Positions 28,686 through 31,530 of a stretch of 41,722 bases of DNA are shown here, piece by piece. The first letter of the stretch is position 1; the number at the start of each line of letters is the position of its first letter. The translations under genes and the position numbers were made by a program. The stretch is taken from NCBI GenBank assembly GCA_007117415.1, contig SKGN01000040.1:1-41722 (forward strand), in the 5' to 3' direction. Source of the DNA: Bacilli bacterium. Its GTDB lineage: Bacteria > Bacillota_I > Bacilli_A > RF39 > UBA660. The notes under the pieces were generated by a model. That model saw only the letters and a program-made list of their open reading frames with translations, did not search any database and had not been told where the DNA came from.

Positions 28686-31530
28686 TTATAAAAAAATAGA
28701 ACGTAAGTGGCAAGAATATTGGGATAGTAACAAGACATTTAAAGCTTATGAAAATTCAGATAAAGAAAAATATTATGTTTTAATTGAGTTCCCATACCCA
28801 TCAGGGTCGGGATTACATATTGGACATCCAAGAAGTTATACAGCTCTAGATTCTTTAGCTAGAAAAAGAAGAATGGAAGGATACAATGTTCTTTTTCCAA
28901 TGGGTTGGGATGCTTTTGGGTTGCCTGCTGAAAACTACGCGATTCAAAATCATATTCATCCTCGTGAGGCGGTTAAAGAAAATGTAGCTATTTTTAAAAA
29001 ACAATGCCAAAATTTAGGTATTTCTTTTGATTGGGATCGTGAGATTTCGACAACAGATCCAAGTTATTTCAAATGGACTCAGTGGCAATTTATTAAATTT
29101 TTTGAACATAATTTAGCATATAAAACTAAGAAAGCTATTAATTGGTGTACAGCCTGCAAAGTTGGTTTATCAAATGAAGAAGTAGAACATGGTAATTGTG
29201 AGCGCTGTGGTGGTGAAATAGTTAGACGCGAAAAAGAACAATGGATGCTTAGTATGAAAAGTTATGCTGAAAAACTTATTGAAGGTTTAAAAGATACTGA
29301 TTTTATTGATCGAGTTAAAACAGCACAAATTAATTGGATAGGAAAAAGTGAAGGAGCTGAAATTACTTTTGATATTGCTGATTCTAATCATAAATTAAAA
29401 GTTTATACAACTAGACCAGATACTATTTATGGTGTAACATTCATGGTGTTATCGCCAGAACATCCAATTTTAAATATGGTTAAAGATAAAATAACAAATT
29501 ATGAAGAAGTTGTTAAATATCAAGAAGATGCTAGTAGAAAGTCGGAATTTGAGCGTGTTGAATTAATAAAAGAAAAAACGGGCGTTAAATTAGAAGGAAT
29601 TGATGCAGTTAATCCTTTAACTAACGAAAAAATTCAAATATGGATATCTGATTATGTAATGATGAATTATGGTACAGGTGCTATTATGGCTGTTCCAGCT
29701 CATGATGATAGAGATTATGATTTTGCTAATAAGTTCGGTATTCCTATTGTTCAAGTCATCGCTCCGTTCTTTTCGCCGGAAGAGGATAATCAATTAAAAC
29801 CTGACGTTAAAACAGATAGAAGAAAAACCGTTATAATAGCTTTAAAACATCATGATAAAGATGAGTATTTATGTTTAAATTGGAAGATAAAAGATTGGCA
29901 TACTTTTGTTGTTGGCGGAAAAGAAAGTAACGAAACAATCGGTGAAACAGCTGTTAGAGAATTGCAAGAAGAAACCGGATACAAAAATATTAGGATAGAT
30001 AAAATTTTTAATTTTGAATCACACAGTTCTTTTTATGCAGCTCATAAAGGAGTTAATCGATATCAAGAAGCTGTTTATGTGTTAGCTAAGTTAGAAGATG
30101 AAGAATCTAATGAAATAATAGCCGAAGAAAAAGATAAACATGATCTTGTTTGGATAAAGAAAGATGAATTAGGTAAATTTATTAATATAGCTACTTATAA
30201 ATATATGGTTGATCTAATCGTCAATGGTGAAAAGGCTTATACTGGTGAAGGGGTCATGATTAATTCTGGCATTTTAAATGATATTAATAATAAGGAAGAA
30301 GCAATAATAACTATTATTAATTATCTTGAAGAAAAAGGAATTGGTAAGAAAACAACTAATTATCGTTTACAAGATTGGGTTTTCTCAAGACAAAGATTTT
30401 GGGGAGAACCTATTCCAATGATCTATTGTGATGAATGTGATTGGGTCCCTGTTCCTGATGAAGATTTACCAGTTATGTTGCCAGAGGTAGCAACTTATGA
30501 TCCAACTGATAATGGAGAAAGTCCATTAGCGACAATGCCCGAATGGTATACAGTAAATTGTCCAAAATGTGGTAAAACAGCGAGGCGTGAAACTGATACG
30601 ATGCCTAATTGGGCTGGTTCATCATGGTATTGGTTAAGATATATGGATCCTCATAATGATCAAGAATTTGTTAGCCAAGCGGCATTAAATTATTGGGGTA
30701 TGGTTAATTGGTATAATGGTGGAATGGAACATGCTACTAGACATTTACTTTATGCTCGTTTTTGGCATCGCTTTCTATATGATATAGGATTAGTACCAAC
30801 TCCTGAACCGTTTACAAAGAGAACTGCTCATGGTATGGTTTTAGGAGAAGATGGTAGTAAAATAAGTAAATCAAAAGGAAATGGTATTAACCCAAATGAT
30901 ATAATTGATGCGTATAGTGCAGATGCCCTTAGAACATATGAATTATTTATGGGTGATTATGAAATGGATACAGCGTGGAGTACTAATGGTTTAAAAGGAT
31001 GTAAACGTTTCCTTGATAAATTATGGCGTGTTAAAGAAAAAGTAAAAAAAAGCGGGGAATATTCAAAAAAATTAGAAAGCATTATCAATCAAACTATAAA
31101 AAAAGTTAGTAACGATATTGAACAAATGAAATATAATACAGCTGTTTCAGCATTAATGATTTTATTAAATGAATATGAAAAGCAAGAATACATAACTGAT
31201 TATGATCTTCGTGTTTTAATTACCTTATTAAATCCTTTTGCCCCTCATATAACAGAGGAAATAAATGAATTAAAAGAATTAGGTAAACCACTATGTGATA
31301 GTCCATGGCCTAAGTATGATGAACTAAAAACTCAAGAAGATACTTACGAATTAATTATTCAAGTTAATGGAAAAGTACGAGGTAAAATTACTGTTAGGAT
31401 CAACATTGACGAAGAAGAAATGAAGAAACAAGCTGTTAATCATGAAAACGCTATTAAGCATATTGAAGGAAAAGAGATCATTAAAATAATTGTTGTGCCT
31501 AAAAAATTAGTTAATATTGTAGTTAAATAG
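28678..31530 (+). CDS. leuS: Leucine--tRNA ligase carrying an internal Nudix-hydrolase-like domain insertion
   Basis: Synthetase and editing motifs are HIGH (HIGHPRSY), KMSKS (KISKS), CP1 editing TTRPDT and [19 protein letters not shown], two Cys clusters (CTAC..CERC and CDEC..CPKC), and [20 protein letters not shown]. The protein is 950 aa, against roughly 800-860 for canonical bacterial LeuRS. The extra residues 362-519 contain the Nudix box. Confidence 0.95.
   Translation: [950 protein letters not shown]

What the first reader, a model, noticed from the sequence alone, without database searches (positions are those of the whole stretch)
29761..30234. Nudix hydrolase domain inserted in-frame inside leucyl-tRNA synthetase, right after the CP1 editing domain
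Seen: LeuRS residues 362-519 ([158 protein letters not shown]) interrupt two blocks that are nearly contiguous in canonical enzymes. Those blocks are [30 protein letters not shown] and [12 protein letters not shown]...[20 protein letters not shown]. As I recall them, E. coli and B. subtilis LeuRS have only a short linker at this point. The insert contains [23 protein letters not shown] (nt 29914-29982). This matches every position of the 23-residue Nudix box G-x5-E-x7-R-E-U-x-E-E-x-G-U, including the catalytic REUxEE glutamates. It is preceded by beta-strand-like segments and has the size (about 150 aa) of a full Nudix fold. All LeuRS motifs (HIGH, KISKS, TTRPDT, both Cys clusters) are intact and the frame is continuous, so this is a functional-looking chimera, not a pseudogene. 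Established: aminoacyl-tRNA synthetases generate Ap4A and related dinucleotides and hold aminoacyl-adenylates, and Nudix enzymes hydrolyse nucleoside-diphosphate-X compounds, including Ap4A. Inference: the inserted domain could destroy Ap4A/ApnA made in situ, contribute a new route for clearing mis-activated adenylates next to the editing domain, or act as a nucleotide-sensing regulatory module. I am not aware of a characterised LeuRS with this architecture.
Basis: partly seen in the sequence, partly recalled or inferred. Interest (0 to 1): 0.8.

Follow-up and report, generated by a model that had tools for sequence, protein, structure and literature searches.

The report
Nudix enzyme embedded in LeuRS editing domain
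The leucine tRNA-charging enzyme of this gut bacterium carries a second, apparently active nucleotide-cleaving (Nudix) enzyme spliced into its proofreading domain; the same uncharacterised design recurs in many small-genome uncultured bacteria and also exists as a separate "proofreading-domain + Nudix" protein.

Summary
ORF 28678-31530 encodes a complete 950-aa bacterial LeuRS, and residues 362-519 (nt 29761-30234) form a confident Nudix domain: Pfam 42.7 bits against a cut-off of 21.1, AF2 pLDDT 95, and Foldseek hits to Ap4A hydrolases and RppH. One correction: the insert lies inside the CP1 editing domain, in a loop that is 7-10 residues long in insert-less relatives and in Thermus LeuRS, not after it.

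It is not an artefact. Over 80 protein clusters from gut "Bacilli" MAGs share it at the same syntenic leuS locus, one on a closed 1.49 Mb chromosome. Many Patescibacteria (CPR) LeuRS carry the same domain. The Nudix catalytic residues are 96-100% conserved, while the rest of the insert has diverged to about 29% identity (LeuRS body 66%).

Additional findings:
- Two deep insert classes occur in both phyla and do not track the LeuRS tree.
- The loop also hosts unrelated domains in CPR.
- Some LeuRS carry 2-3 Nudix copies.
- Free-standing "mini-CP1 + Nudix" genes exist, one directly upstream of an insert-less leuS.

The function is inferred, not shown. The most likely role is hydrolysis of ApnA-type nucleotides. 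No publication describing this was found.

The parts
28678..31530 (+). leuS: complete 950-aa bacterial-type leucyl-tRNA synthetase with an embedded Nudix domain
   Evidence: ORF. TIGR00396 at 936 bits. AF2 model pLDDT 88, with Foldseek TM 0.8 to Thermus and E. coli LeuRS.
28816..28827 (+). HIGH motif (aa 47-50)
   Evidence: invariant in 72 relatives.
29146..29208 (+). First Cys4 cluster (C157, C160, C174, C177; ZN1)
29332..29760 (+). CP1 editing domain, N-terminal part (aa ~219-361). Includes the T-rich motif TTRPDT (aa 244-249, nt 29407-29424) and AHDDRD (aa 341-346, nt 29698-29715).
   Evidence: PF13603 aligns aa 219-366 to profile positions 2-145 of 185. Motifs.
29761..30234 (+). Nudix hydrolase domain inserted in a CP1 surface loop (aa 362-519)
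   Evidence: PF00293 E=7e-11. Domain model pLDDT 95, pTM 0.88. Foldseek hits to Ap4A hydrolases, RppH and NudI. The same site holds a 7-aa linker in insert-less relatives.
29914..29982 (+). Nudix box GX5EX7REUXEEXGU (aa 413-435), with catalytic residues R427, E428, E431, E432
   Evidence: Strict box in 79 of 83 homologues. G413, R427, E428, E431, E432 and Y435 are 100% conserved; E419 is 98%.
30031..30036 (+). Aromatic dyad F452-Y453, 17/18 residues after the box (position of the ApnA-hydrolase specificity Tyr, X-loop)
   Evidence: Y at 73-80% conservation. Y453 aligns with a Tyr of the Plasmodium Ap4A hydrolase 5cfi. The motif is described in PMC5389931.
30127..30153 (+). Conserved downstream residues E484 and W492 of the Nudix domain
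   Evidence: Both are invariant in alignment A2 (E123 and W131 in insert numbering). W492 is 100% conserved in 83 homologues.
30235..30357 (+). CP1 editing domain, C-terminal part (aa 520-~560), resuming at [12 protein letters not shown]
   Evidence: Aligns to Thermus LeuRS 374-436. G525 and S530 are invariant.
30427..30570 (+). Second Cys cluster (C584, C587, C628, C631)
30859..30873 (+). KMSKS-type motif KISKS (aa 728-732)
28326..28685 (+). 119-aa hydrophobic ORF overlapping the leuS start by 8 nt. Together with the upstream GH31 gene (25798-28209) it forms the conserved synteny of the leuS locus.
   Evidence: The same order is seen in L001 (closed chromosome OW818670.1) and in L088.

Best explanation
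SHOWN. This is the organism's resident leuS at its conserved chromosomal position. It encodes a complete LeuRS with intact synthetic and editing motifs. The CP1 editing domain carries, in a surface loop, a well-folded Nudix domain with every catalytic residue intact. The architecture is inherited and under purifying selection on the Nudix active site in many gut Bacilli and Patescibacteria. INFERRED. The insert is an active Mg2+-dependent pyrophosphohydrolase that works alongside LeuRS rather than replacing any of its activities. Its most likely substrates are adenine-containing dinucleoside polyphosphates or closely related nucleotide by-products (Ap4A/ApnA, possibly Np4A-type caps). Aminoacyl-tRNA synthetases themselves generate these compounds (PMC10148737). 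On this reading, the protein couples a producer of alarmone-type nucleotides with their hydrolase on one constitutively expressed polypeptide, in bacteria with small genomes. CP1 appears to be the obligatory structural partner of this Nudix lineage. The two stay together even when the rest of LeuRS is absent, and the junctions are predicted to be rigid. My estimates by step: architecture about 0.97; catalytically active hydrolase about 0.8; ApnA-type substrate about 0.35.
For: Domain identity. Intact LeuRS. Not an artefact: more than 80 clusters of 938-950 aa carry PF00293, synteny is conserved including on a closed 1.49 Mb chromosome, and 21 Bacilli and about 35 CPR species representatives carry it. 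Insert GC and GC3 equal those of the rest of the gene. Selection on catalysis: box residues are 96-100% conserved, while insert identity to the query averages 29% against 66.5% for the body. A further Glu (E484) and W492 are also conserved. Substrate lead: the best PDB sequence hit is an Ap4A hydrolase (5cfi, E=1.8e-5). Foldseek's top hits include CT771, Aquifex, Plasmodium, C. elegans and human Ap4A hydrolases, Thermus Ap6A hydrolase, and RppH bound to Ap4A. A conserved Tyr sits at the ApnA specificity position. CP1-Nudix as a unit: free-standing proteins of 273-287 aa with both insert classes. The insert junction blocks have pLDDT 89-93.
Against: No biochemical data exist. Nudix substrate specificity is notoriously hard to predict, and the Foldseek E-values for Ap4A hydrolases, RppH, NudI, MutT1 and an uncharacterised Enterococcus Nudix (2azw, the top hit) are all within about two orders of magnitude. 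LeuRS is not known as a major Ap4A producer (my recollection, not tested). Free-standing CP1+Nudix proteins have no synthetic site, so proximity to adenylate chemistry cannot be essential. The patchy presence among close relatives shows the function is dispensable or replaceable. I could not test whether these genomes lack YqeK, ApaH or other Ap4A hydrolases.
Confidence: 0.4

Rival explanations
1. RNA-end enzyme. The Nudix domain acts on the acceptor end of tRNA (or another RNA) held by CP1. This could be RppH-like removal of a 5' pyrophosphate or Np4A/NAD-type cap. It could also be removal of a pyrophosphate or nucleotidyl block from the 3'-CCA end, such as the damage made by toxSAS or nucleotidyltransferase toxins. 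That would make CP1+Nudix a tRNA repair or detoxification module.
For: E. coli RppH structures, including RNA-bound ones, are among the best fold matches, and NCBIfam RppH models give weak hits. The Nudix always travels with CP1, the tRNA 3'-end-binding domain, even when the CP1 deacylase residues have decayed. In CPR the domain can sit before or inside CP1 and in 2-3 copies, which suggests that proximity to CP1 matters rather than exact geometry. Other enzyme domains occupy the same region: an NTase in L045 and a Ser hydrolase in P0183. The fast-evolving, swapped, patchy pattern resembles conflict-driven modules.
Against: Mature tRNA has a 5' monophosphate. No RNA-binding extension is evident. 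In most stand-alone forms the T-rich and GTG elements that form the A76 pocket are lost, which weakens the idea that CP1 delivers the CCA end. PADLOC gives only a weak generic Nudix hit (PDC-S07). No toxin or antitoxin genes are nearby in the window.
Confidence: 0.2
2. Adenylate clearance or antibiotic detoxification. The Nudix domain destroys mis-activated aminoacyl-adenylates (an extra pre-transfer editing route), or natural aminoacyl-adenylate mimics that poison LeuRS.
For: The insert is located in the editing domain. According to PDB entry titles, that pocket can bind pre-transfer analogues (1obh) and the agrocin 84 toxic moiety binds LeuRS (3zgz). The stand-alone P0140 gene abuts a GNAT acetyltransferase gene (stop at 6846, next start at 6847), followed by an APH-type kinase gene, with Ham1 and another Nudix in the neighbourhood. 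This looks like a detoxification or house-cleaning cluster. NCBIfam lists an IleRS with a GNAT domain (NF040702, seen) as a comparable aaRS-plus-enzyme design.
Against: Nudix enzymes cleave pyrophosphate linkages. aa-AMP is an acyl-phosphate and sulfamoyl or phosphoramidate mimics lack a pyrophosphate (established chemistry). The CP1 hydrolytic site is fully intact and sufficient for editing. The neighbourhood differs in other stand-alone lineages: ABC-F and Pdf next to P0144, leuS next to P0135.
Confidence: 0.1
3. Non-catalytic module. The Nudix fold serves as a nucleotide-sensing, protein-interaction or purely structural appendage of CP1.
For: Non-enzymatic Nudix-fold proteins are known (PMC5389931). 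A few lineages have altered boxes: L015 and L041 have RE changed to RK, and free-standing CPR homologues have E changed to Q and R changed to A. The junctions are predicted to be rigid.
Against: In the window and in about 95% of embedded copies, all metal-binding and catalytic residues are strictly conserved while the rest of the domain drifts to 22-29% identity. That is the signature of retained catalysis.
Confidence: 0.1
4. Artefact or selfish element: an assembly chimera, a pseudogene, or an intein-like mobile insertion.
For: Distribution among close relatives is patchy and the insert tree disagrees with the body tree. There is a weak 23-residue PT-HINT hit at E=0.018.
Against: Dozens of independent assemblies from different studies share the insert, including a closed chromosome. 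The frame is continuous and composition is indistinguishable from the host gene. The insert starts with APFF and ends with NGEK followed by A, so there is no Cys/Ser/Thr at the N-junction, no His-Asn plus Cys/Ser/Thr at the C-junction, and no endonuclease domain. The fold is a complete Nudix.
Confidence: 0.01

Closest known systems
Nudix-family ApnA hydrolases and RppH (C. trachomatis CT771 4mpo, A. aeolicus aq_158 3i7u, P. falciparum 5cfi, human NUDT2 4ijx, T. thermophilus Ndx1 1vc8, E. coli RppH 4s2x/7sp3)
   Same: Same alpha/beta/alpha Nudix fold (TM 0.6-0.8). Complete Nudix box. A conserved Tyr at the X-loop specificity position. They are the best sequence and fold neighbours.
   Different: These are free-standing proteins of about 130-160 aa. 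Identity is only 14-28%. The window's domain belongs to a distinct lineage that is almost always embedded in, or fused to, a LeuRS CP1 domain. Its own conserved residues (Y397, L398, W402, K457, W492, H507) have no assigned role.
Canonical bacterial LeuRS (T. thermophilus 1h3n/2bte; E. coli 4aq7/4arc; TIGR00396)
   Same: Same domain order and all catalytic and editing motifs. 31-36% identity. TM about 0.8 outside the insert.
   Different: Canonical enzymes have a loop of 7-16 residues where this protein has a 158-aa enzyme domain. NCBI's pipeline accordingly names the insert-bearing proteins only 'class I tRNA ligase family protein'.
Other aaRS with an appended second enzyme, e.g. IleRS with an N-acetyltransferase domain (NCBIfam NF040702 ileS_w_GNAT)
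   Same: A class Ia synthetase carrying an extra small-molecule-modifying enzyme domain. The family's existence is seen.
   Different: The enzyme class differs (GNAT versus Nudix). I did not examine its position or function. The window protein scores only 75.7 bits against a cut-off of 1999, so it is not a member.
Free-standing trans-editing factors (AlaX, ProXp-ala/YbaK, ThrRS-ed)
   Same: The stand-alone 273-287-aa CP1+Nudix proteins found here are autonomous proteins derived from a synthetase editing domain, like these factors.
   Different: The free-standing editing enzymes I know of derive from class II synthetases (my knowledge). The 2024 review PMC11295145 discusses CP1 only as a domain of LeuRS, ValRS and IleRS in the passages I read. 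Here the parent is the class I CP1 domain, most copies have lost the deacylase residues, and all carry a Nudix domain.

Membership tests
Nudix hydrolase superfamily (PF00293) | Profile-HMM match above the curated threshold | tested here: met
   42.7 bits against a gathering score of 21.1, E=7.2e-11, on the insert alone.
Nudix hydrolase superfamily (PF00293) | Nudix box GX5EX7REUXEEXGU with the metal-binding Glu residues | tested here: met
   aa 413-435 match every position. The box residues are 96-100% conserved in 83 homologues.
Nudix hydrolase superfamily (PF00293) | Alpha/beta/alpha sandwich Nudix fold | tested here: met
   AF2 pLDDT 95, pTM 0.88. Foldseek finds 557 PDB matches at E<=1e-3, and all 50 listed are Nudix proteins with TMq 0.47-0.77.
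Nudix hydrolase superfamily (PF00293) | Mg2+/Mn2+-dependent hydrolysis of a nucleoside-diphosphate-X substrate | not testable with these tools
   Requires an enzyme assay.
Nudix ApnA (Ap4A) hydrolase subfamily | Conserved Tyr in the X-loop about 17 residues downstream of the box (PMC5389931) | tested here: met
   F452/Y453 lie at +17/+18 and are Y in 73-80% of homologues. Y453 aligns with a Tyr of 5cfi. This is suggestive, not diagnostic.
Nudix ApnA (Ap4A) hydrolase subfamily | Closest sequence and structure neighbours are ApnA hydrolases, to the exclusion of other Nudix subfamilies | tested here: inconclusive
   Ap4A hydrolases are enriched at the top, but RppH, NudI, MutT1 and an uncharacterised Nudix score similarly. 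NCBIfam equivalogs all fall far below their cut-offs.
Nudix ApnA (Ap4A) hydrolase subfamily | Asymmetric cleavage of Ap4A to ATP + AMP | not testable with these tools
   Requires an enzyme assay.
Bacterial leucyl-tRNA synthetase (TIGR00396) | Equivalog HMM above cut-off; HIGH and KMSKS motifs; Zn-binding Cys clusters | tested here: met
   936 bits against 548. Motifs.
Bacterial leucyl-tRNA synthetase (TIGR00396) | CP1 editing domain with the T-rich motif, GTG, and the conserved Asp of HDxRD | tested here: met
   TTRPDT at 244, GTG at 332 and AHDDRD at 341 are invariant across 72 relatives. TTRxDT is retained in the CPR and Bacilli copies examined.
Bacterial leucyl-tRNA synthetase (TIGR00396) | It is the sole, essential leuS of the genome | tested here: inconclusive
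   It occupies the conserved leuS locus. No assembly gave two hits among the 80 best loci. Whole genomes could not be scanned.
Inteins / HINT mobile insertions | N-terminal Cys/Ser/Thr, C-terminal His-Asn followed by Cys/Ser/Thr, HINT fold | tested here: not met
   The junctions are VI|APFF and NGEK|AY. The only hit is a 23-residue PT-HINT match at E=0.018. The fold is Nudix.

The most novel reading that the evidence does not exclude
CP1+Nudix is an autonomous functional module: a second, pyrophosphohydrolytic quality-control or repair activity that uses the class I editing domain as its platform. It might repair or de-block tRNA acceptor ends, or destroy nucleotide-type poisons of translation. 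On this reading it is exchanged between leuS alleles like a cassette, can be supplied in cis (as in this window) or in trans, and its free-standing forms would be the first natural stand-alone proteins derived from a class I CP1 editing domain.
Probability: 0.15. Interest if true: 0.85.

Novelty: new variant of a known kind. Interest (0 to 1): 0.66.

Why it matters
Aminoacyl-tRNA synthetases are among the most intensively studied enzymes, and bacterial LeuRS is a validated drug target (benzoxaboroles bind CP1). A catalytically intact second enzyme embedded inside the editing domain, conserved across two unrelated groups of genome-reduced, uncultivated bacteria, is not in the aaRS or Nudix literature I could search. 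If the Nudix hydrolyses Ap4A-type nucleotides, this is a natural fusion of an alarmone producer with its hydrolase, and a direct handle on the long-debated physiological link between synthetases and ApnA. If instead it acts on tRNA ends or adenylate-like toxins, it is a new type of translational quality control or defence. In either case three things become easy to test with recombinant protein and point mutants: the stand-alone CP1+Nudix genes, the cis/trans alternation at one locus, and the use of this CP1 loop as a hotspot for foreign enzyme domains in CPR. They would also improve annotation, since these proteins are currently labelled 'class I tRNA ligase family protein' or 'NUDIX domain-containing protein'.

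Tried and rejected
1. Assembly artefact or pseudogene: rejected.
2. Intein or mobile selfish element: rejected on junction residues and fold.
3. Recent foreign DNA detectable by composition: no signal. GC is 0.300 against 0.316 and GC3 is 0.177 against 0.169.
4. T-box or other regulatory RNA upstream of leuS: none at Rfam gathering thresholds. leuS overlaps the upstream ORF by 8 nt.
5. A second copy of the Nudix module or another LeuRS in the window: none.
6. Known anti-phage defence family: only a weak generic hit to PADLOC PDC-S07.
7. Module in trans near insert-less leuS: none of the 22 insert-less species-representative loci has it within +-6 kb. L088 is the only adjacent case found.
8. 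Co-occurrence test through NCBI accession neighbourhoods: failed, because too few accessions were returned.
9. Measuring the distance between the Nudix site and the editing or synthetic sites: not possible, because model coordinates and PAE are not exposed.
10. My first regex suggested the T-rich motif was lost in many Nudix-bearing LeuRS. This was a false alarm: the motif is TTR[P/C/A]DT.
11. The NJ tree of LeuRS bodies gave 17 presence/absence changes, but its internal branches are very short. I rely instead on the bootstrap identity contrast.
12. Literature searches for LeuRS+Nudix, aaRS+Nudix+CPR, LeuRS+CP1+insertion+Nudix and LeuRS+Patescibacteria returned nothing relevant.

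
Full report
OBSERVATION. The window holds an uninterrupted 950-aa ORF at 28678-31530 on the + strand. NCBIfam identifies it as bacterial leucine-tRNA ligase: TIGR00396, 936 bits against a cut-off of 548. The 23-residue Nudix box lies at aa 413-435 (nt 29914-29982). HIGH (47), TTRPDT (244), GTG (332), AHDDRD (341), KISKS (728) and both Cys clusters are present. They are invariant in an alignment of 72 relatives.

INSERTION POINT. Close relatives of about 800 aa have the 7-residue linker GGDISKE between ...IPIIEVIK and PYIGDGxMINSG, exactly where this protein has 158 residues. 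Against solved structures, the flanks align to T. thermophilus LeuRS residues ...363 and 374..., and to an equally short E. coli loop. Pfam's editing-domain model PF13603 is split at about position 145 of 185. Isolated CP1 crystal constructs run about 56 residues beyond the site. So the Nudix domain lies inside CP1, not after it.

STRUCTURE. An AF2 model of the whole protein is confident, with mean pLDDT 88.2 and pTM 0.75. The insert blocks and both junction blocks score about 88-95, which suggests a rigidly docked domain rather than a floppy tether. Outside the insert, the model superposes on Thermus, Neisseria and E. coli LeuRS with target-normalised TM about 0.8. The insert modelled alone reaches pLDDT 95 and pTM 0.88 and has the Nudix beta/alpha/beta pattern. 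Its best PDB neighbours are an uncharacterised Enterococcus Nudix (2azw); the Ap4A hydrolases of Chlamydia (CT771), Aquifex, Plasmodium, C. elegans and human; Thermus Ap6A hydrolase; E. coli RppH, including the Ap4A- and RNA-bound forms; NudI; and MutT1. All fall at E of 1e-9 to 5e-7. By sequence, the best solved relative is the Plasmodium Ap4A hydrolase 5cfi at E=1.8e-5.

IS IT REAL, AND HOW COMMON IS IT? A search of 5.8 billion proteins with the full protein returned dozens of 90%-identity clusters of 938-950 aa carrying PF00293 at 57-68% identity. They are interleaved with 795-800-aa LeuRS lacking it, and all come from MAGs labelled Bacilli, Mollicutes or Tenericutes. NCBI names the long forms only 'class I tRNA ligase family protein'. 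One homologue lies on a closed 1.49 Mb chromosome (OW818670.1) with the same gene order as the window: GH31, a small membrane ORF, then leuS. A scan of GTDB species representatives found the insert in 21 gut Bacilli MAGs from rabbit, goat, rumen and human samples. Unexpectedly, it also found the insert in about 35 Patescibacteria/CPR genomes (Paceibacteria, Saccharimonadia, Uhrbacteria, Taylorbacteria, Nomurabacteria and others). Their LeuRS bodies are only 44-54% identical to the window's. No assembly gave two leuS hits among the 80 loci kept. The insert's GC and GC3 match the rest of the gene. The rest of the window is ordinary Bacillota chromosome: class-B RNase P RNA, RecA, RNase Y, PBP1, RecU, DnaD, CCA-adding enzyme, FemAB, SpoVA genes, ScpAB, and tRNA-Leu(CAA). 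Artefact, pseudogene and intein readings are rejected.

SELECTION. Among 83 long homologues, 79 keep the strict box. G413, R427, E428, E431, E432 and Y435 are 100% conserved, E419 and T433 are 98%, and G434 is 96%. Y397, L398, W402, A454, K457, W492 and H507 are each at least 95% conserved. Yet mean identity of the insert to the query is 29%, against 66.5% for the LeuRS body. An additional Glu (E484) is invariant in the insert alignment. This pattern, with the catalytic core frozen and the rest drifting, is what retained catalysis predicts. The LeuRS editing and synthetic motifs stay intact in the insert-bearing enzymes.

EVOLUTION. The inserts fall into two deep classes. One is the window-like class 'W' (KHW..DEYLCL.WK...W.TFVVGG ... 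FYAAHK.VNR ... NGEK). The other is class 'B' (YLTINWG..GGRLFIGG ... HHYYAYNK). Both classes occur in Bacilli and in CPR. The window's insert is 40-45% identical to CPR inserts whose LeuRS bodies are 49-54% identical to the window's. It is only 25-27% identical to the inserts of its nearest body relatives, which are 73-77% identical. A column bootstrap confirms the conflict. For the body, identity to P0008 minus identity to P0005 is +0.063 (95% CI 0.032-0.097). For the insert, the same contrast is -0.25 (95% CI -0.34 to -0.16). Presence and absence are interleaved on the body tree, although that NJ tree has very short internal branches. The simplest reading is that the Nudix segment has been gained, lost and swapped between leuS alleles as a cassette. 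Recombination in the highly conserved flanks is a plausible route, with at least two exchanges between phyla. This is inference.

THE LOOP IS A HOTSPOT, AND CP1+NUDIX IS A UNIT. In some CPR LeuRS, the same loop holds unrelated inserts. L045 has a 184-aa nucleotidyltransferase (PF10706, 28.5 bits against a cut-off of 21). L037, L049 and L070 have segments of 116-139 aa with no Pfam match. I searched 1.84 billion cluster representatives with a profile of the insert. It gave 137 hits at E<=1e-30:
- LeuRS with the domain at about residue 370-520.
- LeuRS with two or three copies, some placed before CP1 (P0167, P0170, P0172).
- One fragment that also carries a serine-hydrolase domain (P0183).
- Free-standing Nudix proteins of about 160 aa from CPR, with an altered box.
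- Free-standing proteins of 273-287 aa that are a trimmed CP1 domain with the Nudix at the identical loop.

These last proteins are complete genes in conserved neighbourhoods. P0144 sits next to an ABC-F gene. P0140, whose cluster has 750 member sequences, abuts a GNAT acetyltransferase gene with an APH-type kinase gene next, near Ham1 and another Nudix. Most have lost the T-rich and GTG editing elements. In the rabbit-gut MAG locus L088, a class-B stand-alone CP1-Nudix gene occupies the usual leuS start position, and 16 nt downstream lies a full-length, insert-less LeuRS of 806 aa. That LeuRS is 72-74% identical to Nudix-bearing LeuRS, while the module's Nudix is 67% identical to their inserts. 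So the module can be supplied in cis or in trans, and it was kept when the rest of an old leuS copy was not. No such module lies within 6 kb of the other 22 insert-less loci. Genome-wide co-occurrence could not be tested.

MECHANISM. Shown: a complete LeuRS with an embedded, well-folded Nudix domain that carries all catalytic residues. Inferred: it is an active pyrophosphohydrolase. My best guess for the substrate (about 0.35) is ApnA-type dinucleoside polyphosphates or related adenine nucleotides. The reasons are as follows. Synthetases make Ap4A and Nudix enzymes degrade it (PMC10148737). ApnA hydrolases and RppH dominate the nearest neighbours. A conserved Tyr (Y453, with F/Y452) sits at the X-loop position that marks ApnA hydrolases (PMC5389931). 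Against strict 'in situ' channelling, the stand-alone forms lack a synthetic site. The constant partnership with CP1, the multi-copy and variable placement around CP1, the co-resident NTase and Ser-hydrolase domains, and the fast, swapped, patchy evolution keep two other readings open. One is action on tRNA or RNA ends (0.2). The other is action on adenylate-like compounds (0.1). A non-catalytic role (0.1) is disfavoured by the conservation pattern.

COMPARISON AND NOVELTY. The parts are known families, and the membership tests for Nudix and for bacterial LeuRS are met. Membership of the ApnA-hydrolase subfamily is only suggested. I found no paper describing a Nudix domain in LeuRS or in any aaRS editing domain. 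The comprehensive Nudix-clan survey does not mention tRNA or synthetases at all. In the passages I read, a 2024 review of editing treats CP1 only as a cis domain. The sequences themselves are already in public databases with generic names. I therefore rate this a new variant of a known kind: an undescribed but widespread aaRS architecture, with an unexpected set of relatives (stand-alone CP1+Nudix, multi-copy forms, an insertion hotspot). Interest is 0.66. It would surprise synthetase specialists and is directly testable, but the function is still inferred.

Noticed in passing
L088:6001-9268 (GCA_947625535.1, CANQOR010000004.1): At the syntenic leuS locus of a rabbit-gut Bacilli MAG, a free-standing 276-aa CP1+Nudix gene sits 16 nt upstream of a full-length, insert-less LeuRS (806 aa). 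That LeuRS has an altered T-rich motif, TTCIET instead of TTRPDT. This is a cis-to-trans split of the module.
   Followed up: partly
L082:6001-6846; L085:6001-6846 (proteins P0144, P0140, P0145, P0147, P0155): Abundant free-standing 'mini-CP1 + Nudix' proteins of 273-287 aa; the P0140 cluster has 750 members. Their editing motifs are degenerate. P0140 abuts a GNAT acetyltransferase gene, with an APH-type kinase gene next. P0144 lies next to an ABC-F gene. These may be the first natural stand-alone derivatives of a class I editing domain.
   Followed up: partly
L045, L037, L049, L070 (CPR LeuRS; insert sequences): The same CP1 loop holds unrelated inserts in some CPR LeuRS. L045 has a 184-aa nucleotidyltransferase domain (PF10706/PF14907). 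The other three have segments of 116-139 aa with no Pfam match.
   Followed up: partly
Proteins P0167, P0168, P0170, P0172, P0192, P0183: Some LeuRS carry two or three copies of this Nudix domain, some placed upstream of CP1 rather than inside it. The fragment P0183 combines CP1, Nudix and a serine-hydrolase domain (PF06821).
   Followed up: partly
L015 and L041 (Bacilli MAGs), aa ~400-425 of LeuRS: Two related LeuRS have the Nudix box changed from RE to RK (ALRKIQEETGY and ALRKIQEKTGY). These are possibly inactivated copies.
   Followed up: no
L084:6001-6474 (P0125) and P0131, P0128, P0001, P0002: Free-standing CPR Nudix proteins of about 160 aa match the insert profile at E of about 1e-47. 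They have an altered box, with E changed to Q at box position 7 and R changed to A at position 15. One is annotated 'leuS' in GenBank although it is not next to leuS.
   Followed up: partly
L001:2928-3419: A separate 163-aa NUDIX gene lies 7 kb upstream of the LeuRS-Nudix gene on the closed chromosome OW818670.1. It did not match the insert HMM at E<=1e-5.
   Followed up: partly
window 68-7084 (+): A giant 2338-aa ORF with GH94 catalytic and supersandwich domains plus a glucoamylase-like domain. It resembles a cyclic beta-1,2-glucan synthase or phosphorylase. Its start codon is TTG.
   Followed up: no
window 15755-16098 (+): Class-B bacterial RNase P RNA (281 bits). This supports a Bacillota origin for the window.
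   Followed up: no
window 41100-41186 and 41628-41704 (+): tRNA-Leu(CAA) and tRNA-Met(CAT) genes lie about 10 kb downstream of leuS.
   Followed up: no
window 8765-9862 (+): A short (365 aa) CCA-adding or poly(A)-polymerase-family nucleotidyltransferase with no HD domain detected.
   Followed up: no
window 33916-35226 (+) and 37303-39085 (+): A FemAB-family aminoacyl-tRNA-dependent peptidyltransferase and a SpoVAC/SpoVAD/SpoVAEb cluster. The organism is therefore walled and probably spore-forming, not a wall-less Mollicute, despite its 27% GC.
   Followed up: no
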